From the NCBI GenBank assembly GCA_964438385.1, contig CAYTKI010000002.1, forward strand, positions 2,219 through 66,218: 64,000 nucleotides of DNA, given 5' to 3'. A program made the translations under genes and the position numbers. The stretch comes from an uncultured Methanosarcinales archaeon (GTDB taxonomy: Archaea > Nanobdellota > Nanobdellia > Woesearchaeales > GW2011-AR4). Of the stretch, positions 1 through 42,685 are shown one piece after another (position 1 is the stretch's first letter; each line of letters starts with the position of its first letter). Under the pieces are notes generated by a model. The model was given only the letters and a program-made list of their open reading frames with translations. It searched no databases and was not told the origin of the DNA.

Positions 1-183
1 CGCATCAAGAAGGGCTGCAAGGTATGCGAGCACGGCGTCTCCTGCGCAAAATCCGCCCAATTGCTCAACATCTCCCAGTGGGAATTGATGCAGTACCTTG
101 GAAAGACAACGCAGTCTGATCAGTGGGCACCTGGCCATGATGTGAGGAACCGACTCAGGTTTGCAAGGGGCCTCTTCCCATGA
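1..183 (+). CDS. 3' end of a partial CDS, HTH/UPF0175-like antitoxin-type protein
   Basis: Frame 1 is open from the window edge: RIKKGCKVCEHGVSCAKSAQLLNISQWELMQYLGKT...LFP*. The 'AxLLxISxWE' HTH pattern is present, and the stop overlaps the PIN gene start (ATGA). Confidence 0.5.
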   Translation, partial: RIKKGCKVCEHGVSCAKSAQLLNISQWELMQYLGKTTQSDQWAPGHDVRNRLRFARGLFP

Positions 184-878
184 AAGCGCTCATTTTTGAT
201 TCCGGACCCATCATTAGCCTCACCCTCAATAATCTTCTCTGGCTGCTTCGCCCCCTCAAGGAGAAATTCAAAGGAGAGTTCTATATCACAAAAGCTGTCT
301 ATGGTGAGGTGATTGGCCATCCTCTTGAGACAAAAAGATTCAAGTTTGAGGCGTTTCAGGTGCTCAATCTGGTAAAGGACAAAACACTCAGGGTAATCGA
401 CTCACAGCAAATCCAAAAAAGGGCCGAAGCGCTCATGGAAACCGCGAACAGCATTTATTATCTGGGAGAGCAGCGCCTCAGGATGTTTCATTTTGCCGAG
501 ATGTCGGTGATGGCAGCAGCTGTAGAGCTTAAGGCCGAGGCAGCAGTCGTTGATGAGCAGATGACGCGAATCGTTTTGGAAAATCCAAATCGGGTCATTG
601 AGCTTCTCACCAAGCGCATGCACAGAAAGCCCTCGGTAAACACCCAAAATCTCCTAGCTCTCCAAAAGGAGCTTAGAGAGGTGAAAATCATCAGGAGCGC
701 GGAGCTTGCGGCAGTGGGTTATGAATTTGGGATGCTAGACCAGTTTGTCGCAGATTCTTCAGTGTTGAAACAGCCCCGCATGGAGCTGATTGACGCAATT
801 CTCTGGGGCCTGAAAATCAACGGCTGCGCAATTTCTGAGAAGGAGATAAAGCAGTTGGTGAAGATTGAGGGGAGGTGA
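180..878 (+). CDS. PIN-domain protein (COG2405-like)
   Basis: N-terminal LIFDSGPII, YITKAVYGEV, and later AE..VM / VVDE acidic PIN motifs. Confidence 0.7.
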   Translation: MKALIFDSGPIISLTLNNLLWLLRPLKEKFKGEFYITKAVYGEVIGHPLETKRFKFEAFQVLNLVKDKTLRVIDSQQIQKRAEALMETANSIYYLGEQRLRMFHFAEMSVMAAAVELKAEAAVVDEQMTRIVLENPNRVIELLTKRMHRKPSVNTQNLLALQKELREVKIIRSAELAAVGYEFGMLDQFVADSSVLKQPRMELIDAILWGLKINGCAISEKEIKQLVKIEGR

Positions 879-955
879 ATTAAGGTTTTTATTAACTGCG
901 CTGTTGCGCGGAACAGAGAGGGAAGCTTTTTAAGGAGAAATGCCAAAAAGTAGTC

Positions 956-2101
956 ATGGCTTTAGTAAGGGATGTATTTGATTTCTTGAGGAGAAAAAAG
1001 ATAAAGTCCCGCGAGGAGGAAATCCGTCATTTTTGGCATGACGTATCTCGATCCATTACAAGATCGCCTGTATTTGCGTTTGAAAAAAAAGAAGAGATTG
1101 AAAAAATCCTTGGGCTGATGAAGGAAATTGAACGATTGGGGATCTCCCAAAAAATACCCGGTTCTCCTCTTGGACCCATCACCCGCCAATTTGAATCCCT
1201 CTCTAAATCCATTGATGGCTCAACAGAATGGGCAAAAAAGGCAGATGATCAGGTGTCTTCTCTTTTGGGGTTCCTTGATGATTATTTTGAGCGCAAGCAG
1301 CCAATGCCCTCTTCATTTTCATTGACTAGGCGTGCAACCATTGCAGGCGCCGCAGGACTTCTTGCCTCCTCAATGAATCTGCCTGGAAGGGCATTTGCAA
1401 ATACGGCGCCACTGAAAATTGTGCTTGATGATGCGGGCGCCCATAAGGACTCCATTGCCCATCTAAAGGCCCTTCAGGAAAAGGGCTATCCACTTACCAT
1501 TGCCGTACTGCCATACAACCACTATAAGAACGCACTTGAAATCCTATCTATCTATCCTCAGGCAAGCATTTTTCTTCACCAACCCATGGAACCAATTGAT
1601 ATGGTGAAACGCGGGCTTGAGACCTTTGTTGAGCCGAATAGGCATTCTCCAGATAGGACGGGAATGTATGTAACAGATGAGCCAGAAGCCTGCGTTAAAA
1701 TCATCGAACGCAATATTGGCATTCTCAATGATGAATTGGGGAAGAAGGGAGGGGAAAAAATTATCGGTTTCAATAACCATACGGGGAGCTTGCTCACACA
1801 ATCAAAGCCTCACATGAGCGCTCTTGCGCACTATGCAAGGAAGAACAACCTTCTTGTGCTTGATTCGAGGACGATTGCCTCAACTGTGCTTTATGAAGAG
1901 GCAATCAATGCAGGAGCCAGAGCATCCTTTCGCAACTACCCCTTTATCGATGATGGAACCGCAACCCACCTCCACATATGCGCAGAGCATGCCCGGAGAG
2001 GGGAAGTGATGATCCCCATCGGGCATATTCAAAAGAAGCCCACGGTCATGGGAATCCTTGAGATGGATAAAGACAAACCTTTGCTTGGAACACTTCAATG
2101 A
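956..2101 (+). CDS. Divergent polysaccharide deacetylase (YibQ-like) with N-terminal extension
   Basis: IVLDDAG, PLTIAVLP, LHQPMEP, GFNNHTGS and LVLDSRT match Polysacc_deac_2. An internal TRRATIAGAAGLLA..AFA segment precedes the domain. Confidence 0.8.
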   Translation: MALVRDVFDFLRRKKIKSREEEIRHFWHDVSRSITRSPVFAFEKKEEIEKILGLMKEIERLGISQKIPGSPLGPITRQFESLSKSIDGSTEWAKKADDQVSSLLGFLDDYFERKQPMPSSFSLTRRATIAGAAGLLASSMNLPGRAFANTAPLKIVLDDAGAHKDSIAHLKALQEKGYPLTIAVLPYNHYKNALEILSIYPQASIFLHQPMEPIDMVKRGLETFVEPNRHSPDRTGMYVTDEPEACVKIIERNIGILNDELGKKGGEKIIGFNNHTGSLLTQSKPHMSALAHYARKNNLLVLDSRTIASTVLYEEAINAGARASFRNYPFIDDGTATHLHICAEHARRGEVMIPIGHIQKKPTVMGILEMDKDKPLLGTLQ

Positions 2102-2208
2102 TCTCCAAGAAATAATCACGAGTATTTTGACTCACAAGGATCTTGAAAATTAGTTTCTATGGATTCTAATCACTGTGATAATAAATTTTCTCCCTGCTAT
2201 TTGCCATT

Positions 2209-5200
2209 CTAGCCGCCTTTACTTGAAGAAACTGATGCGAGCTTTGCCATTTGGCCATTGGCCCCGTAATAATTTGCAATCCCTTGAGTGACTCTTCCGG
2301 CATATCTTTCCACTGCTTGCTTATATTCCGGACTATTCTTATCAAATGAGGGAACTGTCCCCTCAACAATTATCCCTCCGCTTGTTGTGGGCGCCCTATT
2401 TGCGGCATTTTGCATGGGATACCATCTCATTTGATTTGCAATTGCATTTGCGAGCGCAATCTGGTTATGGGCAATCACCCCTTCTGGGGCTTTTAATTTC
2501 TCACTGTTCCGTTCACCATGTATCTCGATAGGAGGAGTACCGGTCCTTGCAAGCTCTGAGATTTTTTTGCCATATTCATTCCAATCGGAAAAATCCTCCT
2601 GCTTAAGAATTCTGAAAGGAATCCCTTTCTCCATTAAATTTTGAGCAGTCAAGGCAACCACATCTTTGACAAACTCTGCTTCCCTAGGAGCACCTCCTAC
2701 CACACCTGGATGGATCGAATGACCTGCAACAAGAACTACGGGAGTTTCTGCGCTTATCTCCACATTATTCCTCGGTATTTCTCCTTGAATGAGCAAATCC
2801 TGCCCTCTACCAATTCTTGCATTAGGTGAGATCCCATTTCTTTCGGCCAATTCTCCAATATCTACATTAAATTTTTGAGCGACGTTTTCCAAACTCTCGC
2901 CATTTTTTACCCGATAATAATATTTGTCTTCTCCCTCTTCTCGATTAAGTGAAAACGTCCCATCATCATACGTCTTGCCAACCACCGTCTTGCGTAGCAT
3001 ATGGGCACCAACAATTTTTTTCTCCGGTGAAGGGGAGATAGCACTTGGAGATTCTTGAGCAGGTTCCGCATCAGTATTGCTTGCCTCGCTTTCTATGGGT
3101 TTTCTCTCCTCCCCCCTCAGTTGCGCCATCAGCTGAATGAGAGCATCATCTCTTTTCTTTTTAATTTCCGCATCAGCATCCGCTACCCGATCCATTTCTC
3201 TTACTTGGGCGAGCATCTCCTCAAATTTTTTTATTTTAGATGGATCACTTCCCCTTGCTTCTCTCATTCCATCAATGGCCTTTTGAGCGTCATTCAATTT
3301 TGCCCCCGCATCATTCTGCTTAATTGCTGCTGCCTGCGCTTCCTCTTCATCCCTGCTTAGCGCATCTCCTCCAACTACTCCAAGCGCCTGCACCTTTGCA
3401 CCTGCCCTTTTTTCTTCTTGTTCAACCATATTCAACTTTTTATTTAAGCTATCTAATTCCTCACTAACTTTTTGTTGAGCTTCTGAATGGGCTTTTATCC
3501 TGCGCTCAAGATCTTCCGCCTCCTTTAGAGCCTCTTGCACTCTTTCCAATGTCTGCAAAAATTGAGCCTCTCCATCTACCTTTTTTATAGCATTTTCTCT
3601 TAGAACCCTATCATTTTCAAGATCTGCAATTAATTGCTTGTTCGCCGTTATCTCCCTCTTATCGGCATCCTCTCTTTTTGCGCTTTTATCTTCTCCTGGT
3701 TTTTCTGTTTGCGCAATCCTCTCCTCATAATCTCTGACAAAATCAGGGTCCCCTCTTCCTGCGCTTTTTATTTCTGCTATCATCTTCTGTCCTTGCGCCC
3801 GCATATCTGCCATTGCCTTCCCTTTTTCTGCTTCCGCCCGTTCAAATTGCCTAAATTCCCTCTCCAGCGCAATTCCATCTTTTTGATACTTTTTTGCCAA
3901 TTCATCAGAAATACCTGCAAGAGTGGTTGCCTCATAGTACCACCTGTTGAATTCTTCCAATACTTCAGCGGAACTGCCCTCACTTGGGGAAACCCTAACA
4001 CTTTTTGTTTCAGCTGCCTGAACCGGGGGGGCCGCCTGACTCGGAGACGCCGGGACCGCCACTTCTTGCGCTGCATCATATTCTTGCCTTGGCTGATTTT
4101 CCGATTTTTTCGCTGTTTGGACCTCTGCGTCAATACTCTCACTTTGAGGGGTATTGTCTCCTACCGCGGGAATTTGAGGTTGCATAGCAGTAATATAGAT
4201 GGACTTTAATTCCAAAGGAAGAATTTGTGCAAAACTTCTCCCAACTTGTGCGACTTGAATAGTCTCGTCCTGCTTTAGCGGGAGAATGATCTGCTGTCCC
4301 ACTCTTATTTTATTTGGATTAGTTATTGAAGGATTAAGATTGGTGATATCGGCGATTGTTATTCCATTATCCCTCGCGATTTTTGTGAGCGTGTCCTCTC
4401 TCTTGACAAAATAGCTTTCACTTCCTTCAAGCTCCACTACTCTTTCAGTAGATCGCTCCACTTTTCTTGTTGAGATTTTCTCAACTTCTCCTTTTACACT
4501 GATAGTTGCTTCAGGTGTTGCATCACTTATCTGTTTATACTGTGTATTCCCATCATCCTGTTTCCAAAATTCCATCTTTGCGGATCCCTCCTCATACTCT
4601 GCAACCCTTTGGGTCACTTTTGAGGTGCTCACAATATCAACCTTTTTGAGCAAATTTCTCTCTACAGGCAGAAGAGGCTTTGCTGAAATCCCGCCTCTCA
4701 CTTCCTCTTCCGCTCCAACTCCTTGATTGATTATCCTTAAGAGATTCCCTTCCCCAAGCCGTGCCTGAAGAGAACCACTTTCTCTTGAATATGTAATCTC
4801 ATCATCAAATCCTCCGCTCTTGCCAAAATCTGAATAAATGATCCCTCTTGGCGCATTCTTGGCAACTAGAGTGAACGCCTCGAAAGGAATGTTTCCCATC
4901 CGCTCAATTTTGGTAAATGATGTCCCTTCCTGCAATCTTAACCTTCCTATCTCTTGCCCAACAGAAACCTTTCCAATGAACTCGGCATATTTTTCCTGAT
5001 TTGCCCCTTCTCCACGAAACATGGTCACTTTTCGGTTTAGAGTTTCACTTGCAACCACAATCTCAGTCGGATTTGATTGCCCAACCGATAGCCCTTCTTC
5101 ACTTGAGGCGGCAAATATATTCCCGCCAAAGGCAAACCGGCCAACTCCCCCTCCATCGTTTTTAATCAGCAGTTTTCCGCCACCTAGCTCAGAAGGGGAT

Positions 5201-5943
5201 GAAATGGATGTCAATCCTCCACGAACAGAAAAAATTACCTCCTTAAATTCATCACTCCTTGCGCCGGCCCCTCCTGGAGTTGACATAGGGAGGTATTCCA
5301 CTGCGTTCTCATTTTTTTGCAGTTCAATATGCGCCCCGTTGCCGATCTTAAGGCCGGATGGAAATAGAAGCGTGCCATCCGCAAGAAGAGCTGCTTTCTT
5401 GCCTTCTGGCAATAAGCTTTGGATATTATCAATGTTAAATGCACTCATTACTTGGTTTTGGTTTCCCCCCTTCGAGGTCTTCACTTCCCCCTCTTTCCCA
5501 TAGGAATGGAGACGCCCTCCTTGATCCTCAATACCTTTGCTTTCAAGATATTTTTTCTTGATTTCCGGGTGATTATTGAAGACCGCTGCACCAAACCCCT
5601 CTGAACTTCTCTCTCTTGCAAAATTCTCTATTCTCTTTAAGGCATCAGGATCTACCTGAGCAGGATTCGAGTTGAATGCAGCGAGCATCTTGTAGGCATT
5701 CTTGTCATTTGAAAATCCGGCAGTCCGGATGTTTGGATCCTTTAGGAGGGAGGAGTCTTTTCTAATAGCTTCAAAAGCGCTATTCGGATCTGATGTAAAC
5801 ATTCCACTTGGATTTGCCAGAAAATCCTCCTTGAATTTTTCATCATTGGATTTGCCGATGGTTTCATCTATTTCTGCCGCGAAAGCGAGAACTGGCAGCG
5901 CAAAGAGCACAATAATCATCAGAATAGCAGCCCTGTTTCTCAT
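2209..5943 (-). CDS. Secreted protein with two LysM domains, a coiled coil and a C-terminal N-acetylmuramoyl-L-alanine amidase (Amidase_3)-like domain
   Basis: Sec signal peptide ending AFA. LysM1 YFVKREDTLTKIARDNG..NPNKIRVGQQIILP; LysM2 YRVKNGESLENVAQKFNV..IGRGQDLLI. C-terminal VLVAGH..REAE..IEIH..IIVEG..GIANY follows the Amidase_3 His/Glu/His/Glu pattern. Confidence 0.82.
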   Translation of the reverse strand: MRNRAAILMIIVLFALPVLAFAAEIDETIGKSNDEKFKEDFLANPSGMFTSDPNSAFEAIRKDSSLLKDPNIRTAGFSNDKNAYKMLAAFNSNPAQVDPDALKRIENFARERSSEGFGAAVFNNHPEIKKKYLESKGIEDQGGRLHSYGKEGEVKTSKGGNQNQVMSAFNIDNIQSLLPEGKKAALLADGTLLFPSGLKIGNGAHIELQKNENAVEYLPMSTPGGAGARSDEFKEVIFSVRGGLTSISSPSELGGGKLLIKNDGGGVGRFAFGGNIFAASSEEGLSVGQSNPTEIVVASETLNRKVTMFRGEGANQEKYAEFIGKVSVGQEIGRLRLQEGTSFTKIERMGNIPFEAFTLVAKNAPRGIIYSDFGKSGGFDDEITYSRESGSLQARLGEGNLLRIINQGVGAEEEVRGGISAKPLLPVERNLLKKVDIVSTSKVTQRVAEYEEGSAKMEFWKQDDGNTQYKQISDATPEATISVKGEVEKISTRKVERSTERVVELEGSESYFVKREDTLTKIARDNGITIADITNLNPSITNPNKIRVGQQIILPLKQDETIQVAQVGRSFAQILPLELKSIYITAMQPQIPAVGDNTPQSESIDAEVQTAKKSENQPRQEYDAAQEVAVPASPSQAAPPVQAAETKSVRVSPSEGSSAEVLEEFNRWYYEATTLAGISDELAKKYQKDGIALEREFRQFERAEAEKGKAMADMRAQGQKMIAEIKSAGRGDPDFVRDYEERIAQTEKPGEDKSAKREDADKREITANKQLIADLENDRVLRENAIKKVDGEAQFLQTLERVQEALKEAEDLERRIKAHSEAQQKVSEELDSLNKKLNMVEQEEKRAGAKVQALGVVGGDALSRDEEEAQAAAIKQNDAGAKLNDAQKAIDGMREARGSDPSKIKKFEEMLAQVREMDRVADADAEIKKKRDDALIQLMAQLRGEERKPIESEASNTDAEPAQESPSAISPSPEKKIVGAHMLRKTVVGKTYDDGTFSLNREEGEDKYYYRVKNGESLENVAQKFNVDIGELAERNGISPNARIGRGQDLLIQGEIPRNNVEISAETPVVLVAGHSIHPGVVGGAPREAEFVKDVVALTAQNLMEKGIPFRILKQEDFSDWNEYGKKISELARTGTPPIEIHGERNSEKLKAPEGVIAHNQIALANAIANQMRWYPMQNAANRAPTTSGGIIVEGTVPSFDKNSPEYKQAVERYAGRVTQGIANYYGANGQMAKLASVSSSKGG

Positions 5944-7244
5944 TGGATATCAACCTTCCACCACAACACATCTTCCCCATATGGATTGATTGCGGTGATC
6001 TTTACATAGTAACTGCCCTTCTGTGTCGGGGTAAAGTTTATTTTTCCACTCAGAGGGTGAATATCAAAAAAAGGAGAGTCATCCAGGAATACCACTTTGC
6101 CAGCCGACCCATTCAAAAGCCCGGCTTCATATTCCACCAACTCTCCGACGCTTCCTGAATAGTTTGCCATTTCCCTGAGAAGAGGGGGGTTTTCTCCCTT
6201 ATTGATCGTTAGTTCAAGAAGAGTGTCCCCCATATTCCCTTGACCATCTTGGACCTCAATCAGCACAAAATCCTCGCGATCCTCAAGATTTGCAGGATTG
6301 ATCGCGAATTCTCCCGTGTTGGGGTTGATATCCACTATCTCTGAATGGCTTACGAAATGAAGATCGCTTCCCTTAGCGATTATCCGCGAAAGATATGCGT
6401 CATTTGATGTGAGCAACACCGGAGGATGGCTTTCCACAGCAATTCTTCTCTTTTGTGGGGTGCTCGAATTCCAATCAAATCTCTCGGCAAACCCAAAAAC
6501 CTTTGTTTGCTTATCAGAATCGTTGAATATTATCCCGAATGCGAATTTTCCGCCCCCAAAACTTTGCTGCTCAAATGAGAAATTCCCTTCCTTTGCCATT
6601 CTTGCAAGCGAGGAGAGGGGGATCCCATCAGGAAATTCCTCTTGTTCGACCATGAATCCTGAAAGGGCGAGGCGCACCTTTTCAAGCACTGTTTTCTGCT
6701 CAATGATGAAATTAGACATTTTAATCTCTTCCCCCTCATAGGAAAACGTGATCGGATAGTGAAGAGAAACAGTGAGCGCATCAGTTGTGAGCAATGAAGA
6801 TACCCTCTCCATTTTTCCCTTGATATCCATGCCTCTCTTCCTGAAGGGGATAAACCCCCCAATACATTCATCGAGATGATCTTCCACATAGGAGGAGATG
6901 GCAATCTCCATACTTTCCTTAGTTGCAAGATTTGAGCCATTCCCTTCCCACACATAGGGCAGACCAATAGAATAATACTCCAATGTGTTTTCTCCAGAAG
7001 GATACTCTCCACCCCTGATCGCGACCTCCGCTATGGATTTTTTCACGGTACTTCTCAGGCATTGCTCCACAAAAAGAGAAATTGGCGCTGCCTTCTCTGA
7101 TGATTGAAGGGCAGAGGAATCAGACTTTTCTTGCGCAGCTCCCCTCGCATCTGATTTGAGGAGTAGATAGGTGCCTACCATAGTGAGAAGGAGCACAATA
7201 ATTATGAGGAATATGCTCATTTGGCCTATTTTATTCTTTTGCAT
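5940..7244 (-). CDS. Class III signal (type IV pilin-like) surface protein with C-terminal Ig/cadherin-like repeats
   Basis: MQKNKIG|QMSIFLIIIVLLL prepilin-like N-terminus. Two INPxTGxFxxxP-type cadherin-like units. Its stop overlaps the start of the LysM-amidase gene. Start moved to M27 of the ORF-track call. Confidence 0.68.
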   Translation of the reverse strand: MQKNKIGQMSIFLIIIVLLLTMVGTYLLLKSDARGAAQEKSDSSALQSSEKAAPISLFVEQCLRSTVKKSIAEVAIRGGEYPSGENTLEYYSIGLPYVWEGNGSNLATKESMEIAISSYVEDHLDECIGGFIPFRKRGMDIKGKMERVSSLLTTDALTVSLHYPITFSYEGEEIKMSNFIIEQKTVLEKVRLALSGFMVEQEEFPDGIPLSSLARMAKEGNFSFEQQSFGGGKFAFGIIFNDSDKQTKVFGFAERFDWNSSTPQKRRIAVESHPPVLLTSNDAYLSRIIAKGSDLHFVSHSEIVDINPNTGEFAINPANLEDREDFVLIEVQDGQGNMGDTLLELTINKGENPPLLREMANYSGSVGELVEYEAGLLNGSAGKVVFLDDSPFFDIHPLSGKINFTPTQKGSYYVKITAINPYGEDVLWWKVDIQ

Positions 7245-7499
7245 AGCCTTCTGTCCATATTCTTTCATGCATATATAAACTTTTTTTATAGGATTCTTCC
7301 AATACGCGCAAAGAAAACTCATTTATGCGCGTTGATGTTTTTTAAGAGATTACTCTCCCTGGGAAAAGGAGATCAATTGATTGGAAGTGACAATTTTCCA
7401 CATCAGGAACTAAAAAATGAAATCAAAAACTTTGCAATGTCCTTCTCTTGAGCATACCCTCACAAATCTTTATAAACTTCTTTTCGTCCCGAAGATTGG

Positions 7500-10581: not shown

Positions 10582-11990
10582 CTGAGTATCCTCTTTAAAG
10601 TATTATTCACATCCCTTGGAGGTGCCTTCCCCTTCGCCTTCCTCATCACTTGGCCGACAAGGAAATTGAAGGCCTTTTCTTCCCCATTCTTGTACTGCTC
10701 AACAACTGAGGGATTTTCCTTGACTGCTTCCCTGCACCACTGCTCAACAAGAGAGGTATCCCTAACTGCCTCAAGCCCTTCTTTTCTGACATACTCCTCA
10801 ACATCAAAAGGGCTTTCCGCCAGCTTTTCAATTAACCTCTGCCCAATTTTCTCTGTAATTATTTTTTTCTCGATGAGCCGTAACAATGAAATAAGGTGTG
10901 TTGGGGCAATGTGAGAATCTTCCAATGATTTTTTATTGTGATGCAAAACTCTAGGTAGTTCCCTTCTCACCCAATTGGCCGCAAGCTTGGGATCCACCTG
11001 CTTTGAGACCGCCTCATACATCGCCGCAAGCGCCTTGTCTTTGGAGAGGACATGCGCCGTAGTGTCTTCAATGCCGTGCTGCTCGCGGAATCTTTTGAGC
11101 TTTTCCTGAGCAAGTTCTGGTAATTCCTCTTTCAATTTATCAACAGTCATATCATCAATGATGATGGGGACTAAATCCGAATCGATAATGTAGCCATAAT
11201 CCTCTTCCGCTTCCTTTTTTCTCAAAGAGAATGTCGCGCCCTTCTCCGCATCCCATGAGCGCGTTTCCTGAGCAATTTTCTCCCCTCCCAAAACCTCTTT
11301 GCGCTGGCGCGCAATCTCGTAGTGGAGCGCCCGCTCAATCTCCTTGAATCCAGTGATGTTCTTGATTTCAACTCTTGTATAATGGGATTCCTTAATGGAG
11401 ACATTCGCATCCGCCTTAATGATCCCTGCGTTCAGATCAAAGACGCCAAGATAGTCAAGAATCGTTATCAATTGATTTAAGAAATCCCGCGCTTCCTCTG
11501 GAGAGTTCATATCGGGCTCGGTCACTATCTCAGTGAGGGGGTTTCCGCTTCTGTTATAATCTATTAAGACATACGCCGATTCGTGCATTCCGCCGGGATG
11601 GATAAGCGATGCGGGATCCTCTTCTAGGTGGATGCGCTTCATCGCAATCTCCTTTCCATTATCCAGTATAAGTTTTCCACCCGTTCCAAGCGGCAGCTCG
11701 TATTGTGTGATTTGGTAGTTCTTTGACATGTCGGGATAGAAATAGGATTTTCTCGAGAAGATAAGCTCTTTTGCGATAGTACTCTTTAGCGCAAGGCAAA
11801 TCTTTATTCCATGCTCAACTGCCTTTCTGTTGAGAACCGGCTTTGAGCCGGGCATTCCAAGGCATGTTGGGCAGGTCCGCGAGTTCGGCTCATCGCTTCC
11901 CGTGGTCGGACATGAACAGAAAAGCTTGGTCTTGGTATTGAGCTCTGCATGCACTTCAAGGCCGATGATGATGTCGGTTGTGAATTTCAT
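10578..11990 (-). CDS. gatB: Asp-tRNA(Asn)/Glu-tRNA(Gln) amidotransferase subunit B
   Basis: IGLEVHAEL, RKSYFYPD, HLEED, DYNRSG, RVEIKN, C-terminal Yqey-like domain. Confidence 0.96.
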   Translation of the reverse strand: MKFTTDIIIGLEVHAELNTKTKLFCSCPTTGSDEPNSRTCPTCLGMPGSKPVLNRKAVEHGIKICLALKSTIAKELIFSRKSYFYPDMSKNYQITQYELPLGTGGKLILDNGKEIAMKRIHLEEDPASLIHPGGMHESAYVLIDYNRSGNPLTEIVTEPDMNSPEEARDFLNQLITILDYLGVFDLNAGIIKADANVSIKESHYTRVEIKNITGFKEIERALHYEIARQRKEVLGGEKIAQETRSWDAEKGATFSLRKKEAEEDYGYIIDSDLVPIIIDDMTVDKLKEELPELAQEKLKRFREQHGIEDTTAHVLSKDKALAAMYEAVSKQVDPKLAANWVRRELPRVLHHNKKSLEDSHIAPTHLISLLRLIEKKIITEKIGQRLIEKLAESPFDVEEYVRKEGLEAVRDTSLVEQWCREAVKENPSVVEQYKNGEEKAFNFLVGQVMRKAKGKAPPRDVNNTLKRILS

Positions 11991-12451
11991 GGTTGTTCCT
12001 GCCTTTTTCCACTATGCTCCTGCCGCTTTTTAAAAATTTCCTTAATGATATCATCAGCGCATTTGTCCCAAAATAAGATGATTTCCCTTGCCTGTGCGGA
12101 AGTGACCCGAAAGCCACGGTAATTTGCATCATTGCGTATCCGCTTGAATCTGGGAAGGTGATTGAGCATCAGCTTTTCCCAAATATCCATTTCCATGAGG
12201 ATCTCCATGGACACCTCATGGTTCTTCGGCTCATAGCCAAGCAGCCACCATTTCGCGTCTCCCAGTTGGCGTATGGACTCATAGATTTCCCTGAAAACAA
12301 GGGTTGCGCTATCTTCATCCAGTGCCACCTCCTTTGCGACTCTGGCGTTTGTTTTCGCAAAATCCGCCATTGATTTTATCCGCTCCCCATCCGGCTGCCG
12401 CACTCTCAGTTGGCCGCTGCGCAGATATGAGTCAATGGCATCTGTTCTCAT
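11987..12451 (-). CDS. HEPN-domain protein (putative toxin)
   Basis: All-helical, with YESIRQL and R-IRNDANYRG motifs; lies directly downstream of an MNT gene. Confidence 0.72.
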   Translation of the reverse strand: MRTDAIDSYLRSGQLRVRQPDGERIKSMADFAKTNARVAKEVALDEDSATLVFREIYESIRQLGDAKWWLLGYEPKNHEVSMEILMEMDIWEKLMLNHLPRFKRIRNDANYRGFRVTSAQAREIILFWDKCADDIIKEIFKKRQEHSGKRQEQP

Positions 12452-18341: not shown

Positions 18342-18689
18342 ATGGGGGGTTCCGCAAATGTACCAAGCAAAGGATACTCTCTTTGCGTGGTTGTCCTTGA
18401 GGATGGAGGGAAGCCACAATTCCTTACTCCAGGGGATGCAATCAGTACTCTTGAGCCTAGACCTTTCTTCTGTGTGAGGGCCCATAATGAGAATGGATGC
18501 GGTGGTCTTGCAGCAGATCTTGCACAAGGCATCAGGCAGTTAGGGAAAGATACCTATACCGGTTTGAGTTCTCTTATAATGGCTGTTTATCAGCTTAATG
18601 GAGGTTCGCAATTTCCAGAAAAAAAGTATGAAGTTTTTGCCCCTAGATCTAAAGTAGAATCTCCGCAATCGTACCATCTAGCACATTAA
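18342..18689 (+). CDS. Hypothetical protein
   Basis: ORF fills the gap between two genes, with a TTTAAATA box upstream; no recognisable motif. Confidence 0.45.
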   Translation: MGGSANVPSKGYSLCVVVLEDGGKPQFLTPGDAISTLEPRPFFCVRAHNENGCGGLAADLAQGIRQLGKDTYTGLSSLIMAVYQLNGGSQFPEKKYEVFAPRSKVESPQSYHLAH

Positions 18690-32679: not shown

Positions 32680-32885
32680 ATAGATGAGGCACTTTTTCCA
32701 AAATCATTGTTTTCCATTTTCAGTTATTTTATTTTTAATGGCAATTCAATGGTAATATGGAGAGTGGAATACTGATCTGGGAGGGTAGTATCTGTGCGCG
32801 CGTGATGTGGAACGAACGCCCTCCACTCACCCCTGATGCGCCAAGTGCATGCGCACATTACACGATGTGTTAAGGAATAGCAGCC

Positions 32886-35459: not shown

Positions 35460-35470
35460 TGGGATCACCT

Positions 35471-35495: not shown

Positions 35496-35496
35496 A

Positions 35497-35566: not shown

Positions 35567-35599
35567 AAACCTCCTGCGCGAGAGGTTGTCGTAGTGACT

Positions 35600-37960: not shown

Positions 37961-38101
37961 ATGAAAAAGCCCATCAGCGCGACCATTGAGGAAGAGCTCA
38001 TCTCCTGGATAGAGTCAGAGGTTGATGGCAGCAAATTCCGAAACAAGTCCCACCTCATAGAAGTCGCCCTCCAGAACATGCGCAAGGGGGTGAAGAAATA
38101 A
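37961..38101 (+). CDS. Small ribbon-helix-helix (CopG-like) protein, 46 aa
   Basis: MKKPISATIEEELISWIESEVDGSKFRNKSHLIEVAL. Too short for the ORF track. Its TAA overlaps the ATG of the next gene. Confidence 0.78.
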   Translation: MKKPISATIEEELISWIESEVDGSKFRNKSHLIEVALQNMRKGVKK

Positions 38102-40407
38102 TGGCGCTCTTCGGCGATTCGAAAAAACCCTTCTCCTATGATATCATTAGGGAAGGCGATGACACCATTCTCTCAGTTGATATGGAGCAATACCCTTTGG
38201 TGCCTTCCATTGAAGATGATCCCATCTGCATGTCGCGCACAATCGATCTCCTTGCCGAGGCGGGAATAATTACCAAAGTGGTGTTTGCGCAGAAGCGCAA
38301 CTATGAATACAATTTCTCCCAGACAAGCATGCTTCGGGAGTTTGGCCTTCTCTTCAAGCAGCTTTCAAAGGGCAAAGGGGCATCGCCAGCGTTTGCGTTG
38401 CTTGGCGATGTTGCGTGCTCGCGTTATGTTGCCCCGTGGTATACTTTCATCCAAAATATAATCGCAGACCAAATCAAGAAGGATCCTGTCGGCGCTTATC
38501 TCGATTTGAAAAGGGAGATGAGGGATGAGCGCATTACTATTGACAAGTCTGCAGACCAGCAGTTCGTCAGCTGCAGCCGTAAATACCTTGCAGCCCTCCA
38601 GTATCTCTCAGGTCTTCTTGAGCGCACAAAGCTCATTTCGGCAGCACAGCCCTTCCTTGCCGGATACAAGGTTGGCGAGCGGGACGTCTATCGCCGGCTC
38701 TTCGCCCCCGAAATACGCCCGGATTTCATGTTTACAAAGCTCATGGCAAATTTTCCCGCTGATGGTGAGGAGATTGACAGCTATTCCATTGACAAGAATA
38801 CCGAGGTCACCATTTTCAAGCTCCCTGACACCGTGCATTACCTCTATCATCTCTCACCTCCGGAATTCAAGCTTGATGAGGCAAAGTATGAGATCCTAGA
38901 CAGCGCCCGAAAAATCCTCTCGGAGCATAAGCCCACTAAGACCGAGTTTGTCAATCCTGAGCGCATGCGCGAGGTCTTCTCAAACATCGGAGCTGACCTT
39001 ATTGAGGAGCTCGCATCGTACCGAAACCTGAAAATGTCCTCCAAGGATATCGAAGAGTTGACAAAAATTCTGGTCAGGTACAGTGTGGGCTTCGGGCTCA
39101 TCGAAGTGCTCTTGCAGGACGAGCGCGTACAGGACATTACCATCAACTCTCCCATGGGCGAGATTCCCATGTTCATTGTGCACCAGGATTACACGGACTG
39201 CAAGACCAATATTATCCCAACAAGGACTGACGCGGAGTCGTGGGCATCAAAACTCCGCCTGATTTCAGGAAGCCCGCTGGACGAGGCAAATCCCATTCTG
39301 GATTCTGAGCTCCTCATTCCCGGCGCAAACGCAAGGGTTGCGGCAATTACCGCCCCTCTCAATCCCACGGGACTTGCATTTGCTTTGCGCAGGCATCGGG
39401 ACAAGCCGTGGACCCTTCCATTATTCGTCAAGAACCGCATGCTCACTTCTCTCGCGGCAGGCATCATATCATTCGTGGTGGATGGGGCGCGCACCATGCT
39501 TGTCGCAGGGACAAGAAGCGCGGGAAAGACTGCATTGCTCGGAGCAGTTCTTGTGGAGCTCATGCGCAAGTACCGCGTCATCACAATTGAGGATACTTTG
39601 GAGCTTCCGACCAAGGCGCTCAGGGATTATGGATACAATATACAATCGATGAAGGTCGCAGCAGCTCTCACCAAGGGCTCTGCGGATGTCTCTGCCGAGG
39701 AAGGCATCCGCACAACGCTAAGGATGGGGGATTCAGCCCTCATAGTGGGCGAAATCAGGAGCAGGGAAGCGCTGGCATTGTATGAGGCAATGCGCATCGG
39801 TGCCTTGGCAAACATTGTAGCGGGCACCATCCACGGAGATTCTCCTTATGGCGTCTTTGATCGCGTGGTCAATGATCTTGGCGTTCCCAGGACATCGTTC
39901 AAGGCGACTGATATTATCATCGTCGCAAACCCCATCCGAACCGCTGATGGGTTGCGCCGCTGGAGGAGGGTGACTCAGATAACGGAAGTGAGAAAGCAAT
40001 GGACAAATGATCCGCTGGAAGAAAACGGCTTTGTTGATTTGATGAAGTATGATGCTAAAGTGGATGAGTTGGTTCCCACCGAAGACTTGATTCATGGGGA
40101 TTCTGACATTCTAAAGGGAATAGCTGCAAATGTCAAGGACTGGGCAGGCAACTGGGATTCTGTATGGGATAATATTCTTTTGCGCGCAAAAATCAAGCAG
40201 ACTATGGTGGATATTGCCACAAAGACCAACAACTGGGATCTGATTGAAGCGGAATTCGTAATCCAAAGCAATGATCAGTTCCACAAGATCTCAGATACGG
40301 TAAAGGAAGAGGTGGGCAGTCTTGATTGTGACAAGATATATTTTGAATGGAACGAATGGTTCAAAAGGCATATCAAGAAAACAGTCATCAGGCAGCAGTT
40401 GAATTAA
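38101..40407 (+). CDS. Type IV pilus/Tad (VirB11/FlaI-like) secretion ATPase
   Basis: VQDITIN, FALRRH, Walker A GTRSAGKT, TIEDTLEL, LIVGEIR, GTIHG. Confidence 0.92.
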   Translation: MALFGDSKKPFSYDIIREGDDTILSVDMEQYPLVPSIEDDPICMSRTIDLLAEAGIITKVVFAQKRNYEYNFSQTSMLREFGLLFKQLSKGKGASPAFALLGDVACSRYVAPWYTFIQNIIADQIKKDPVGAYLDLKREMRDERITIDKSADQQFVSCSRKYLAALQYLSGLLERTKLISAAQPFLAGYKVGERDVYRRLFAPEIRPDFMFTKLMANFPADGEEIDSYSIDKNTEVTIFKLPDTVHYLYHLSPPEFKLDEAKYEILDSARKILSEHKPTKTEFVNPERMREVFSNIGADLIEELASYRNLKMSSKDIEELTKILVRYSVGFGLIEVLLQDERVQDITINSPMGEIPMFIVHQDYTDCKTNIIPTRTDAESWASKLRLISGSPLDEANPILDSELLIPGANARVAAITAPLNPTGLAFALRRHRDKPWTLPLFVKNRMLTSLAAGIISFVVDGARTMLVAGTRSAGKTALLGAVLVELMRKYRVITIEDTLELPTKALRDYGYNIQSMKVAAALTKGSADVSAEEGIRTTLRMGDSALIVGEIRSREALALYEAMRIGALANIVAGTIHGDSPYGVFDRVVNDLGVPRTSFKATDIIIVANPIRTADGLRRWRRVTQITEVRKQWTNDPLEENGFVDLMKYDAKVDELVPTEDLIHGDSDILKGIAANVKDWAGNWDSVWDNILLRAKIKQTMVDIATKTNNWDLIEAEFVIQSNDQFHKISDTVKEEVGSLDCDKIYFEWNEWFKRHIKKTVIRQQLN

Positions 40408-40501: not shown

Positions 40502-42685
40502 GTGCCAAGTGTAGAGGAGCAGCTGCGTCTGCGTAATTTAATAGACCTATACAAGCGCAACCTGGAGCGGGAGCTTGGGGTGAATGTGGAGAAATCCACA
40601 CAGGTGAACTCGCGCGAGTATCAGCAGTTCAAGCGGGAGTTCATGCCTGCCCACTTGAGCTGGTACGAAAAGGCATGCAACCTTAGCGAAAAGCTCTTGC
40701 GGGTAAAACCAGACACCAAACAGGCAGAAGATCTGCAGGAGTCAATCACCGTCTGCCATCTTGGGATCACCCCGTCAGGAGCCATTTCGTTCTCCTTTCT
40801 TGCCCCTCTCCTCATCGTCTTAATCGGATCGCTTTTCTCCTATGCGCTTTTCCAGTCCACCTTCTTCATCATCCTTTTCCTCATCCTCGGCGCGACGCTT
40901 GTGAAGGTGTTTGCGAAAGTCCCTGAATTCCTTGCAAACAATTGGCGCCTTTCGGCAAGCAACCAGATGGTGCTCTCCATTTTCTACGTGGTGACCTACA
41001 TGCGCCACACCCCGAATCTTGAGAACGCGATCATCTTTGCGGCAGACCATCTTGCGCCACCTCTTGCGCTTGATCTCAAGAAAGTGAGCTGGGATGTGGA
41101 AACGGAGAAATACCCCTCGCTCAAGGAGTCCCTGGATGCGTATCTTGAGACCTGGAAGAAATGGAACATGGAGTTTATCGAGGCGTTCCACCTCATAGAG
41201 TCCTCGCTGTATGAGGGCGATGATGCCCGCCGGCTCAATACCCTCGATAAGGCATTGGATGTCATCCTCGATGAGACCTATGAGAAGATGCTGCACTATG
41301 CCCATAATCTCCAGAACCCAATCACCATGCTCCACATGCTTGGCGTCATCATGCCAATTCTGGGACTTGTGATTTTGCCGCTCGTTGTGAGTTTCACCCA
41401 GAACGCGAAATGGTACCATATCGCCCTGCTCTATAACGTTGTGCTGCCCATTTTAGTCTATTATCTGGGCAAGAACATCCTCTCCAAGCGCCCAACCGGC
41501 TATGGCGACACGGACATCTCGGAGGAGAATCCAGAGCTGAAGAAATACAAATACATTGTGCTCAACCTTGGCGGAGTGGAAGTGCAGATGAGCCCATTGG
41601 TTGTGAGCAGTGTTGTGTTCATGGTCTGCTTCTTCATCGGCATCTCTCCTTTGCTCATGCATTTCCTCGGCATCCCTGATTTTGGCTTCGGAGGAGAGGA
41701 TGTGCACAGCCAGTGCGGCTCAAGCTTTTGCATGCTAGAGTATAAAGAGAATGTGGAGACCGGGCAGATAATCGGCCCATTTGGTTTGGGGGCTGCGCTC
41801 ATCAGTTTGTTTGTTCCGCTGAGTTTCGGCCTTCTCATCGGCATCTATTATCGCCTGCGCTCAAAGGACGTCATCAAGATTCGGAACCGGGCAAAGCAGC
41901 TGGAAATGGAGTTTGCAGCTGCCCTCTTCCAGCTGGGCAACCGGCTTGGGGACAATCTTCCGGTTGAGATTGCGGTGGAAAAAGTGGCCTCAGGCATGGA
42001 AGGCACCATATCTGGGAATTTCTTTCGTCTGGTGAGCATGAACCAGCGCAGGATGGGTATGGGTATTGAAGATGCCATCTTCGACCCAAAGCACGGAGCG
42101 CTTGTGCAGTTCCCTTCTAGCATGATAGAAAGCTCGATGAAAGTCCTCACGCAAAGCATCAAGAAAGGTCCAAGGATTGCTGCCCAGGCATTGACAAACG
42201 TCTCGCGCTACATTAAGGAGATCCACAAGGTGGACGAGCGGCTAAAAGACATCATGGCAGACATCATCTCCTCCATGAAATCGCAGATAAGTTTTTTGGC
42301 TCCTGCAATTGCAGGCGTTGTCATTGGCATAACCTCCATGGTAACAACCATCTTAAGCAAGCTCGGCCAGCAGCTAAAAGAAGTGACCACAAGTGTCGGA
42401 ACAGACGCGGCAGTGGCCCCTACCGGCTTGATTAATATTTTCGGGGATGGCATTCCGACGTTCCATTTCCAAATCATTGTGGGAATCTATGTTGTGCAGA
42501 TTGTCTATATTCTCACCATCATGGCGAATGGCATTGAGAACGGGGCTGATAAGCTCAATGAGGAATACCTTCTCGGAGTGAACATGATTAGGAGCACACT
42601 ACTCTACATCTTCATCGCGCTTGCGGTCATGATCGCCTTCAATATGATCGCGGGGAAGATACTGACATCAACGCTTGCGGGGTGA
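40502..42685 (+). CDS. TadB/TadC (FlaJ-like) membrane platform protein
   Basis: Duplicated T2SSF-like regions and multiple TM segments; follows the ATPase. Confidence 0.85.
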   Translation: MPSVEEQLRLRNLIDLYKRNLERELGVNVEKSTQVNSREYQQFKREFMPAHLSWYEKACNLSEKLLRVKPDTKQAEDLQESITVCHLGITPSGAISFSFLAPLLIVLIGSLFSYALFQSTFFIILFLILGATLVKVFAKVPEFLANNWRLSASNQMVLSIFYVVTYMRHTPNLENAIIFAADHLAPPLALDLKKVSWDVETEKYPSLKESLDAYLETWKKWNMEFIEAFHLIESSLYEGDDARRLNTLDKALDVILDETYEKMLHYAHNLQNPITMLHMLGVIMPILGLVILPLVVSFTQNAKWYHIALLYNVVLPILVYYLGKNILSKRPTGYGDTDISEENPELKKYKYIVLNLGGVEVQMSPLVVSSVVFMVCFFIGISPLLMHFLGIPDFGFGGEDVHSQCGSSFCMLEYKENVETGQIIGPFGLGAALISLFVPLSFGLLIGIYYRLRSKDVIKIRNRAKQLEMEFAAALFQLGNRLGDNLPVEIAVEKVASGMEGTISGNFFRLVSMNQRRMGMGIEDAIFDPKHGALVQFPSSMIESSMKVLTQSIKKGPRIAAQALTNVSRYIKEIHKVDERLKDIMADIISSMKSQISFLAPAIAGVVIGITSMVTTILSKLGQQLKEVTTSVGTDAAVAPTGLINIFGDGIPTFHFQIIVGIYVVQIVYILTIMANGIENGADKLNEEYLLGVNMIRSTLLYIFIALAVMIAFNMIAGKILTSTLAG

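What the first reader, a model, noticed from the sequence alone, without database searches (positions are those of the whole stretch)
956..7244. Candidate archaeal anti-peptidoglycan module: pilin-like adhesin, giant LysM-coiled-coil-amidase and YibQ deacetylase
Seen in sequence: a class III signal protein with cadherin-like repeats is translationally coupled (4-nt overlap) to a secreted 1244-aa protein. That protein carries LysM (~4280-4417), a ~300-aa coiled coil with Pro/Ala/Ser-rich linkers, a second LysM (~2788-2920) and a C-terminal domain keeping the Amidase_3 Zn ligands and catalytic Glu (H, E, H, E). A YibQ-type deacetylase gene converges on it. Established: archaea make no bacterial peptidoglycan, LysM binds GlcNAc glycans, and in E. 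coli yibQ sits beside the coiled-coil amidase activator envC. Inference: a pilus-associated long-reach tool to attach to and open bacterial cell walls, which would imply a bacterial host or prey for this DPANN cell.
Basis: partly seen in the sequence, partly recalled or inferred. Interest (0 to 1): 0.9.

Follow-up and report, generated by a model that had tools for sequence, protein, structure and literature searches.

The report
Archaeal island for stripping bacterial cell wall
A Woesearchaeota (DPANN) archaeon carries a three-gene insert that most likely encodes an exported cell-wall-binding amidase, a deacetylase that acts on the amidase's product, and an unknown membrane-anchored partner; this is an unusual new example of the already reported bacterial cell-wall hydrolases of archaea.

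Summary
The 1244-aa gene (2209..5943, -) has a Sec-type signal, two LysM domains at the stated coordinates, a charged helical region of about 285 aa between Pro/Ala/Ser linkers, and a C-terminal domain. Pfam does not recognise that domain, but its model matches Amidase_3 structures (Foldseek 5e-7, TM about 0.6), and H1075/E1088/H1142/E1194 are in place. The ATGA overlap with the upstream gene is real. The convergent gene is a PF04748 YibQ/SddA-type deacetylase with all four metal ligands. GatB, HerA and Mre11 relatives place the window in Woesearchaeota.

Not confirmed: the "cadherin-like repeats". The class III signal is only plausible, and the "pilus-associated long reach" is untested.

New points:
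- In five relatives orf180 lies 84-1389 bp from HerA. Here 6.6 kb holding the three low-GC3 genes sits between them, which suggests a lineage-specific, probably acquired island.
- E. coli SddA (YibQ) deacetylates denuded glycan strands, the product of amidases. This links the two enzymes mechanistically.
- The amidase domain's only sequence relatives are green-lineage eukaryotes.

LysM-bearing hydrolases in Woesearchaeales, including LysM+Amidase_3, and a predatory reading are already published. I rate this a new variant of a known kind. A bacterial host or prey remains inference.

The parts
956..2101 (+). YibQ/SddA-type divergent polysaccharide deacetylase gene (381-aa ORF as called). The probable functional start is Met117 at nt 1304.
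   Evidence: PF04748 E=1.6e-22, aa 155-364. It hits PDB 2NLY at E=4.6e-5 and is 25% identical to E. coli YibQ. The metal ligands D158, D159, H208 and H275 match SddA D31, D32, H78 and H123.
1304..1405 (+). Tat-like export signal inside the called ORF (MPSSFSLTRRATIAGAAGLLASSMNLPGRAFA). It would be N-terminal if translation starts at Met117.
   Evidence: Read from the sequence. The closest homologues P0031 and P0032 (287-297 aa) begin directly with a signal peptide. No signal predictor was run.
2209..5943 (-). Gene for the 1244-aa exported multidomain protein. Order: signal, unknown N-terminal domain, LysM1, linker, helical region, linker, LysM2, Amidase_3-like domain.
   Evidence: ORF. It has no relative at 90% identity and no full-length homologue. 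It contains no cysteine.
5875..5943 (-). Sec-type signal peptide (aa 1-23; AFA|AE)
   Evidence: Read from the sequence; inference only.
4444..5874 (-). N-terminal domain of unknown fold (aa 24-500; Gly/Ser/Glu-rich)
   Evidence: No Pfam hit, no PDB sequence hit, no PHROG hit, and no relative in metagenome or genome contigs.
4279..4407 (-). LysM domain 1 (aa 513-555)
   Evidence: PF01476, best stretch aa 513-555; whole-protein E=4.8e-22.
3109..3963 (-). Charged helical, coiled-coil-like region (aa 661-945). Pro/Ala/Ser linkers flank it at aa 585-660 and 946-980.
   Evidence: 45-55% charged residues, low Pro/Gly, peaks of 3.5-residue periodicity, and Gly/Pro breaks. No coiled-coil predictor or structure model was run.
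2785..2922 (-). LysM domain 2 (aa 1008-1053)
   Evidence: Second PF01476 stretch, plus PF23473 and NCBIfam hits at aa 1006-1057. PHROG LysM hits lie at aa 1005-1055.
2212..2769 (-). Divergent Amidase_3-like (MurNAc-L-Ala amidase fold) domain, aa 1059-1244. Candidate Zn ligands are H1075 (nt 2719-2721), E1088 (2680-2682) and H1142 (2518-2520). The candidate catalytic residue is E1194 (2362-2364).
   Evidence: AF2 model pLDDT 78.3. Foldseek against PDB: the top 28 rows are amidases, led by 3czx at 5.4e-7. BFVD: phage amidases. The profile's best PDB hit is 3czx at E=0.061. Four of 10 family members hit PF01520 weakly.
5940..7322 (-). Upstream gene, 460 aa as called. The probable start is ATG 7244 (434 aa), which gives a class-III-like or membrane-anchor N-terminus. 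Its stop overlaps the giant gene's ATG (ATGA, 5940-5943).
   Evidence: A TATA-like TTTATATAT at 7271-7279 lies 27-35 nt upstream of ATG 7244. There is no family, PDB or PHROG hit and no relative in metagenomes.
879..7499 (.). The 6.6-kb interval between orf180 and herA that holds the three genes; a lineage-specific insertion.
   Evidence: In L005, L008, L010, L011 and L015 the orf180 orthologue lies 84-1389 bp from HerA. No module protein is found in the 83 loci searched. GC3 is 0.38-0.46 against a median of 0.559 for 49 ORFs. No flanking repeats were found.

Best explanation
The 6.6-kb interval between orf180 and herA is a lineage-specific, probably horizontally acquired island in a Woesearchaeota genome. 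It encodes an exported two-enzyme set for bacterial peptidoglycan plus one partner protein of unknown fold.

Step 1 (inferred from domains). The 1244-aa protein is exported by its Sec-type signal and binds GlcNAc-containing glycan through its two LysM domains.

Step 2 (fold shown by modelling, activity inferred). Its compact C-terminal Zn amidase, about 186 aa, is too short to hold the roughly 50-aa regulatory insert of AmiA/B/C. It cuts the MurNAc-L-Ala bond, which releases stem peptides and leaves denuded glycan strands.

Step 3 (family membership shown, substrate inferred from E. coli SddA). The convergent, separately exported YibQ/SddA-type deacetylase removes acetyl groups from GlcNAc in those denuded strands. 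This may free the LysM domains from spent product or prepare the glycan for further breakdown.

Step 4 (inferred only from the ATGA overlap). The upstream protein is made together with the amidase. Its hydrophobic N-terminus may hold the complex at the archaeal surface, with the helical region acting as a spacer.

The target is a neighbouring bacterium's wall or shed wall material, because the archaeon is not expected to make murein.
For: - LysM x2: PF01476 E=4.8e-22.
- Amidase_3 fold: AF2 pLDDT 78 / pTM 0.78. Foldseek against PDB puts amidases in the top 28 rows (3czx 5.4e-7, AmiC2, Ami1/Rv3717, PlyPSA, AmiA, CwlD, LytH, CwlV), with AmiC and AmiB lower in the list. BFVD matches are phage lysins.
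- H1075, E1088 and H1142 align with AmiC H196, E211 and H265. These residues and the Glu of GG-x3-E are conserved across the 10-member family.
- Four of 10 family members touch PF01520.
- The deacetylase is PF04748 at E=1.6e-22 with all four metal ligands.
- SddA is specific for amidase products.
- Both enzymes carry export signals.
- Island evidence: orf180 and HerA are adjacent in 5 relatives, and the three genes have GC3 of 0.38-0.46 against a median of 0.559.
- The window is archaeal (eS1) and Woesearchaeotal (GatB 77% to UBA12027).
- Precedent exists for archaeal peptidoglycan hydrolases that kill bacteria, including LysM+Amidase_3 in Woesearchaeales.
Against: - The window's own amidase domain does not reach any Pfam or PDB sequence threshold. 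The assignment rests on a medium-confidence model and short profile alignments.
- In the ungapped MAFFT column the family's Glu faces a Val in this protein, so a one-residue loop shift must be assumed.
- The model is weakest (pLDDT about 52) at aa 120-130 of the domain, next to the active site.
- No relative shares the gene arrangement, so the functional link between the three genes is not backed by conserved synteny.
- LysM also binds chitin and pseudomurein (paper text).
- The deacetylase ORF as called places its signal 116 residues from the N-terminus.
- Nothing shows contact between the upstream protein and the giant protein.
- The rest of the genome was not seen. Neither murein synthesis genes nor a Tat system or prepilin peptidase could be checked.
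Confidence: 0.6

Rival explanations
1. Same enzymes, different purpose. The module scavenges free peptidoglycan debris (necromass) for peptides, amino sugars and acetate. It is not used to breach a living bacterial host or prey.
For: The giant protein has no membrane anchor of its own and no cysteine for lipidation, so it may simply be secreted. DPANN genomes lack many biosynthetic pathways, and Woesearchaeota are described as recyclers of cellular compounds. The deacetylase acts on products, not on intact wall.
Against: A 1244-aa protein with a long spacer and a co-translated membrane-inserted partner is elaborate for a free digestive enzyme. No glycosidase or uptake genes lie in the island.
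Confidence: 0.22
2. The target is not murein but another GlcNAc-containing polymer. Candidates are pseudomurein or S-layer glycans of an archaeal (for example methanogen) host, or chitin. The amidase-fold domain would then cut a different amide bond.
For: LysM can bind chitin and pseudomurein (citing Visweswaran 2012). The known hosts of cultured DPANN are archaea (my own knowledge). The amidase domain is very divergent from bacterial Amidase_3, with no Pfam hit. The substrate-side loop is poorly modelled.
Against: All strong structural matches are MurNAc-L-Ala amidases. The partner enzyme's only characterised relative acts on murein glycan. Pseudomurein has no MurNAc-L-Ala bond, and its known hydrolases are cysteine peptidases (my own knowledge).
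Confidence: 0.1
3. The amidase-like domain is catalytically dead or serves only as a wall-binding module. The giant protein would then be an adhesin or surface fibre without hydrolytic action.
For: There is no HMM-level match to Amidase_3. The Glu is out of register by one in the plain alignment. A large unknown N-terminal domain and a long helical region dominate the protein.
Against: H, E, H and the GG-x3-E Glu are all present and are conserved across relatives that are only 21-27% identical. This argues for selection on catalysis.
Confidence: 0.06
4. The enzymes remodel the archaeon's own envelope, as the amidase, EnvC and SddA do at the bacterial septum. This would require the cell to make a murein-like wall using bacterially derived genes.
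For: The window holds bacterial-type envelope and translation genes: Lgt PF01790 at 1e-75 and a bacterial-type AspRS with a GAD domain. Extensive bacterial gene import into this genome is therefore real.
Against: No mur, PBP or FtsEX/EnvC genes turned up among the 43 window ORFs scanned. The three genes are absent from all 80 related loci and are compositionally foreign, which is unlike a core cell-division function.
Confidence: 0.02

Closest known systems
Modular peptidoglycan hydrolases of archaea (PLoS Biol 2025, PMC12352652), including the Woesearchaeales entries 'LysM+SLT' and 'LysM+Amidase_3' (MBW2966008.1)
   Same: An archaeal, exported protein that joins a wall-binding LysM domain to a peptidoglycan-cleaving catalytic domain. 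The distribution is patchy and HGT-like. Such proteins are prominent in Nanoarchaeota/Woesearchaeales.
   Different: This amidase is too divergent for the Pfam screen used in that study. The protein is far larger (1244 aa) and has an unknown 480-aa N-terminal domain and a helical region of about 285 aa. It is paired with an SddA-type deacetylase and a co-translated partner. I could not compare it directly with MBW2966008.1.
Amidase_3 / MurNAc-LAA amidases without a regulatory helix (3czx Neisseria, AmiC2 Nostoc 5emi, CwlV 1jwq, PlyPSA 1xov, AmiP 7b3n)
   Same: Same fold and size (about 170-185 aa), TM 0.58-0.62, and the same H/E/H + E arrangement.
   Different: Sequence identity is only 12-21%, with no PF01520 hit. 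The only sequence relatives are an uncharacterised green-lineage eukaryotic family.
E. coli SddA (YibQ) with the envC-sddA operon and the AmiA/B septal amidases (bioRxiv 10.1101/2025.02.18.638797)
   Same: PF04748 domain with the four metal ligands, an export signal, and genetic linkage to the amidase system.
   Different: In E. coli the neighbour is the activator EnvC (coiled coil + LytM) on the same strand. Here the neighbour is the amidase itself, it is convergent, and there is no LytM domain. Identity is 25%. The E. coli function is septal regulation in a murein-walled cell, which cannot apply to an archaeon without murein.
Large lytic murein transglycosylases of 'predatory' Woesearchaeota (Castelle 2015 AR20; Vigneron 2022, PMC9723730)
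   Same: Same phylum and the same proposed use, attack on or degradation of bacterial walls. These are also large extracellular proteins.
   Different: They cleave a different bond (glycosidic, GH23). No deacetylase partner is described.
Large virion-associated peptidoglycan hydrolases of cyanophages (e.g. Synechococcus phage S-H9-1 A0A873WGP8, syn9 Gp14)
   Same: The best single structural match to the amidase domain (TM 0.68, rmsd 3.5 A), embedded in very large multidomain proteins.
   Different: They are viral structural proteins with an M23 domain. No sequence-level similarity was detected.

Membership tests
Amidase_3 (PF01520, MurNAc-L-Ala amidase) | Match to the family HMM above the gathering score | tested here: not met
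   No hit at E<=10 for the isolated domain or the whole protein. Four of its 9 homologues hit weakly, best E=0.0039.
Amidase_3 (PF01520, MurNAc-L-Ala amidase) | Six-stranded alpha/beta fold of the MurNAc-LAA amidases | tested here: met
   AF2 pLDDT 78.3 / pTM 0.78. Foldseek against PDB: the top 28 rows are Amidase_3 structures, E down to 5.4e-7, probability 1.00, TM about 0.6.
Amidase_3 (PF01520, MurNAc-L-Ala amidase) | Zn ligands His-Glu-His | tested here: met
   H1075 and E1088 align with AmiC H196 and E211 in hhalign. H1142 aligns with H265 in low-stringency hhalign and MAFFT. All three are invariant in the 10-sequence family. The AmiC residue numbers are from my memory of the 4BIN paper.
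Amidase_3 (PF01520, MurNAc-L-Ala amidase) | Catalytic Glu on the last strand | tested here: inconclusive
   E1194 lies in the last strand of the model (133-139) and in a GG-x3-E motif shared by all 10 sequences. MAFFT places it one column off, and the AmiC alignment is unreliable here.
Amidase_3 (PF01520, MurNAc-L-Ala amidase) | Hydrolysis of the MurNAc-L-Ala bond | not testable with these tools
   Needs an enzyme assay.
LysM (PF01476) | HMM match above the gathering score | tested here: met
   78.1 bits against a cut-off of 20.9; two stretches.
Divergent polysaccharide deacetylase PF04748 / SddA (YibQ) | HMM match above the gathering score and the four metal ligands (D, D, H, H) | tested here: met
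   80.1 bits against a cut-off of 27.5. D158, D159, H208 and H275 align with SddA D31, D32, H78 and H123. 2NLY E=4.6e-5.
Divergent polysaccharide deacetylase PF04748 / SddA (YibQ) | Specificity for denuded glycan strands; same-strand linkage to envC within 2 kb | tested here: not met
   There is no envC/LytM gene in the island. The neighbour is the amidase and it is convergent. Substrate specificity cannot be tested here.
Archaeal class III (type IV pilin-like) signal peptide proteins | Short charged N-terminus, [KRDE][GA] cleavage motif, then a hydrophobic stretch of about 20 aa; prepilin peptidase and pilus genes present | tested here: inconclusive
   From ATG 7244 the N-terminus is MQKNKIG|QMSIFLIIIVLLLTMVGTYLLL. 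Position -2 is Ile, not charged. The motif rule is recalled from memory. A T2SSE ATPase (38101..40407) and a 727-aa polytopic membrane protein (40502..42685), possibly a pilus pair, lie 31 kb away. No prepilin peptidase was seen.
Cadherin-like / He_PIG / PKD Ig-like repeats | HMM match or detectable internal repeats | tested here: not met
   Only PKD at E=0.007, 16.8 bits against a cut-off of 23.5, on the last 82 aa. The two segments do not align. There are no PDB hits.
EnvC-type amidase activator | Coiled coil followed by a LytM (M23-like) domain | tested here: not met
   No Peptidase_M23/LytM hit anywhere in the three proteins. The NCBIfam 'ActS/DipM/NlpD' hits are through LysM only and lie far below their cut-offs.
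Modular archaeal peptidoglycan hydrolase (sensu PMC12352652) | At least one wall-binding and one catalytic peptidoglycan domain in one archaeal protein | tested here: met
   LysM is met by HMM and the catalytic domain by fold only. The organism is archaeal.

The most novel reading that the evidence does not exclude
The three genes build a surface-tethered device. The class-III-signal or anchor protein would hold the giant protein on a pilus-like fibre or on the membrane. The helical spacer, up to about 40 nm if fully extended, would carry the LysM2-amidase head to a neighbouring bacterium. The amidase would strip the wall locally, and the SddA-like deacetylase would convert the product so the LysM domains let go. 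This would be an archaeal amidase-deacetylase pair acting on another organism's wall, and a concrete genomic handle on a bacterial host or prey for a Woesearchaeon.
Probability: 0.15. Interest if true: 0.8.

Novelty: new variant of a known kind. Interest (0 to 1): 0.5.

Why it matters
Hosts and lifestyles of Woesearchaeota are almost unknown, and exported murein-specific enzymes are among the few sequence clues that point to bacteria as partners or prey.

This locus adds three things to the published catalogue:
- A very divergent Amidase_3 subfamily that HMM screens miss, so archaeal peptidoglycan hydrolases are probably under-counted.
- A direct pairing of an amidase with an SddA-type deacetylase, whose only known substrate is the amidase's product. 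The pairing suggests a two-step wall-processing route outside bacteria.
- Evidence that the set arrived together as one island.

All three points can be tested with ordinary expression and sacculus assays.

Tried and rejected
- Word-index homology search gave nothing for the amidase domain and only the protein itself for the whole giant protein.
- P0001 is not on record in the look-up of encoding contigs.
- Genome-contig scan with the giant protein found no relatives. Metagenome scans with the upstream protein and with the giant's N-terminal domain found none.
- Single-sequence AF2 of aa 981-1244 was too poor to use (pLDDT 56).
- Global hhalign against AmiC failed. An algal domain against PDB found nothing.
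- tblastn of LysM2+amidase against phages gave LysM hits only. PHROGs also gave LysM only.
- There are no flanking direct or inverted repeats and no integrase or tRNA at the island borders. The bacterial promoter/terminator scan was near shuffle expectation.
- The two proposed Ig/cadherin repeats do not align. The giant's N-terminal domain has no similarity to the upstream protein and no internal repeats.
- I considered that the window might be bacterial, because of the bacterial-type AspRS and Lgt. I rejected this because of ribosomal protein eS1 and the Woesearchaeota-wide GatA-GatB-Mre11-HerA synteny.
- A literature search for murein synthesis in Woesearchaeota was unproductive.
- The closest relative, L004 (UBA12027), is cut exactly at HerA's N-terminus. 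Whether it carries the island could not be seen.

Full report
WHAT IS THERE

The interval holds three genes:
- 956..2101 (+), 381 aa.
- 2209..5943 (-), 1244 aa.
- 5940..7322 (-), 460 aa as called.

The stop of the upstream gene and the start of the 1244-aa gene share ATGA at 5940-5943. The 381-aa gene converges on the 1244-aa gene with 107 bp between the stops. All three proteins are singletons at 90% identity in a 15-billion-protein collection, with the same gene starts as called there.

ORGANISM

The window encodes ribosomal protein eS1 (PF01015, 1e-33), which is found only in archaea and eukaryotes. It also encodes an RFC-like clamp loader and a HerA-Mre11 pair.

GatB is 77% identical to Ca. 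Woesearchaeota UBA12027 and 45-72% identical to the 79 other loci. By their record titles almost all of these are Woesearchaeota or Nanoarchaeota, and about twenty are labelled Methanosarcinales. HerA (84%) and Mre11 (81%) agree with this placement.

The genome also carries clearly bacterial-type genes: Lgt (1e-75) and an AspRS with a GAD domain.

THE 1244-aa PROTEIN

- N-terminus. It reads as a Sec signal, MRNR-hydrophobic-AFA|AE. This is my reading; no predictor was run.
- aa 24-500. No match in Pfam, the PDB or PHROGs.
- LysM. PF01476 scores 78 bits against a cut-off of 21, with two stretches.
- aa 661-945. The region is 45-55% charged, poor in Pro/Gly and shows 3.5-residue periodicity in several segments. 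Gly/Pro breaks occur near aa 730, 750, 857 and 898, so it may be a segmented helical bundle rather than one rod. Pro/Ala/Ser linkers flank it.

THE C-TERMINAL DOMAIN (aa 1059-1244)

- Sequence searches alone fail: no Pfam hit at E<=10, and the best PDB sequence hit is 3czx at E=0.65.
- An exhaustive phmmer search of 1.84 billion representatives found nine true relatives (E 2e-7 to 6.5e-4, 28-32% identity).
- In the alignment of these with the window's domain (A1), His17, Glu30, Glu82 and His84 of the domain are invariant.
- The alignment profile hits 3czx best, at E=0.061. Four of the ten sequences touch PF01520, best E=0.0039.
- AF2 with this alignment gave pLDDT 78.3 and pTM 0.78.
- Foldseek against the PDB returned 35 matches with E<=1e-3. 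Thirty-one are MurNAc-L-Ala amidases of the Amidase_3 family and four are chains of a carboxypeptidase-like protein, REP34 (4oko). The amidases fill the top 28 rows: 3czx 5.4e-7, AmiC2, Ami1/Rv3717, PlyPSA, AmiA, CwlD, LytH and CwlV. AmiC and AmiB follow lower down. TM is about 0.6. BFVD gave phage lysins.
- hhalign puts H1075 and E1088 on AmiC H196 and E211. A permissive hhalign run and MAFFT put H1142 on H265.
- The candidate catalytic Glu is E1194. In MAFFT's ungapped column this protein has Val where the relatives have Glu. All ten sequences share GG-x3-E, so a one-residue loop shift restores the register. I rate this residue likely but not proven.
- The domain is the compact, roughly 180-aa type, so it has no room for the roughly 50-aa regulatory insert that AmiC carries between the third ligand and the last strands. 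This suggests it needs no EnvC-like activator; that is inference.

THE CONVERGENT GENE

It is PF04748 at 80 bits against a cut-off of 27.5. It hits PDB 2NLY at 4.6e-5 and is 25% identical to E. coli YibQ.

More useful is a 2025 study that renamed YibQ as SddA. [quoted passage not shown] Its metal ligands are D31, D32, H78 and H123. These align with D158, D159, H208 and H275 in the window protein.

The called ORF places a Tat-like signal (TRRATIAG...AFA) at residues 117-150. The two closest homologues start directly with a signal peptide. Met117 (nt 1304) is therefore the more plausible start.

THE UPSTREAM GENE

- A TATA-like element at 7271-7279 favours ATG 7244.
- The resulting N-terminus, MQKNKIG|QMSIFLIIIVLLL..., resembles a class III signal. 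Position -2 is Ile, however, and a simple membrane anchor fits as well.
- It is the only such N-terminus among the window's real genes. A T2SSE ATPase and a 727-aa polytopic membrane protein, possibly a pilus ATPase and platform pair, lie 31 kb away.
- The 'cadherin-like repeats' are not supported. The only hit is a sub-threshold PKD match on the last 82 aa. The two segments do not align, and there are no PDB or PHROG hits.

CONTEXT AND ORIGIN

Related Woesearchaeota share the order GatA-GatB-Mre11-HerA. In five of them (L005, L008, L010, L011, L015) the orthologue of orf180 (window 180..878) lies 84-1389 bp from HerA. In the window, 6.6 kb carrying exactly the three genes separates orf180 and HerA.

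None of the three proteins has a tblastn match in the 80 related loci. Their GC3 values (0.38, 0.46, 0.46) rank 4th, 6th and 7th lowest of 49 ORFs, against a median of 0.559.

I read this as a lineage-specific, probably acquired island. There are no border repeats or integrase. The nearest relative's locus (L004) stops at HerA, so whether it holds the island is unknown.

The closest YibQ homologues (33-36% identity) sit on short contigs with unrelated neighbours. Co-insertion is the only positional evidence that the genes belong together.

MECHANISM

The best-supported reading is an exported two-step peptidoglycan-processing set.
1. LysM-guided amidase action strips stem peptides from the wall.
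2. The SddA-type enzyme deacetylates the resulting bare glycan.
3. The co-translated upstream protein possibly anchors the large protein at the archaeal surface.

What is shown:
- domain identities;
- the amidase fold;
- conserved ligands in both enzymes;
- the island structure of the locus.

What is inferred:
- export;
- substrate;
- order of action;
- tethering;
- biological purpose.

Attack on live bacteria and scavenging of wall debris cannot be separated with sequence data. Lower-probability rivals are a non-murein target (pseudomurein, chitin or glycans), an inactive binding-only domain, and self-remodelling.

COMPARISON WITH WHAT IS KNOWN

Archaeal modular peptidoglycan hydrolases occur in about 5% of archaeal genomes and are prominent in Nanoarchaeota. 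A haloarchaeal example kills bacteria. The supplementary table of that study lists Woesearchaeales proteins with LysM+SLT and one with LysM+Amidase_3.

A predatory or 'vampiristic' use of murein-degrading enzymes by Woesearchaeota has been proposed since 2015 and again in 2022.

The kind is therefore known. Three features are new here:
- the highly divergent amidase that such screens would miss;
- the very large architecture;
- the direct pairing with an SddA-type deacetylase.

SIDE OBSERVATION

The amidase domain's only sequence relatives come from Chlorokybus, Mesostigma, Picocystis, a lycophyte, and marine eukaryote transcriptomes or metagenome contigs. Streptophyte algae and early land plants are reported to keep plastid peptidoglycan (abstract of PMC9434261). 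The best viral structural match is a cyanophage protein. This hints at a cyanobacterial/plastid-associated amidase subfamily. I did not follow it up.

VERDICT

The pilus, cadherin and long-reach parts and the bacterial-host conclusion are not established. I rate it a new variant of a known kind, of moderate interest.

Noticed in passing
window 2212-2769 (amidase domain) and proteins P0002-P0012: The only sequence relatives of the amidase domain (28-32% identity) are uncharacterised proteins of green-lineage eukaryotes: Chlorokybus, Mesostigma, Picocystis and the lycophyte Diphasiastrum, plus MMETSP transcripts. They share the motifs GHWIDPG..GAPGE, EIHGQG and GG-x3-E-x-F. These lineages are reported to keep plastid peptidoglycan, so the family may be an unrecognised plastid wall amidase. 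The best viral structural match is a cyanophage protein.
   Followed up: partly
window 58012-58821 (+): A bacterial-type prolipoprotein diacylglyceryl transferase (Lgt, PF01790, E=1.2e-75) sits in an archaeal genome. The gene upstream (57186-58031) overlaps it and has no family hit.
   Followed up: no
window 18686-20908 (-): A 740-aa AspRS of the bacterial type (GAD insertion domain) is fused to a C-terminal YbaK-like aminoacyl-tRNA editing domain.
   Followed up: no
window 11987-13068 (-): A small two-gene pair lies between gatB and gatA: a 206-aa nucleotidyltransferase (Polbeta/NTP_transf_2) and a 154-aa partner. The pair looks like an MNT-HEPN-type toxin-antitoxin set. Of the 80 related loci only L005 has both genes.
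   Followed up: partly
window 38101-42685 (+): A 768-aa T2SSE-family ATPase is followed by a 727-aa polytopic membrane protein with no Pfam hit. This is probably an archaeal type IV pilus-like assembly pair, 31 kb from the class-III-like protein.
   Followed up: partly
window 23194-23284 (+): ARAGORN calls a 91-nt tRNA-Gln(CTG) that Rfam's gathering search did not report. Its length suggests an intron. It overlaps the start of the ORF called at 23208.
   Followed up: no
window 34801-36287 (-): Two PIN-like proteins (137 and 133 aa, both starting ...DTN.....) and an AbrB/SpoVT-like 97-aa protein (SKGQIVVPKELRDQL) form a likely VapBC-type toxin-antitoxin cluster. This was read by eye only.
   Followed up: no
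window 30880-34697 (+): A eukaryote-type glycogen synthase (PF05693, E=2e-159) lies next to an amylo-alpha-1,6-glucosidase (GDE_C).
   Followed up: no
window 956-1303 (+): 116 codons of open frame lie upstream of the Tat-like signal of the deacetylase gene. They have no family hit and no counterpart in the homologues. They could be a real cytoplasmic extension, a mis-called start, or a remnant of another gene.
   Followed up: partly
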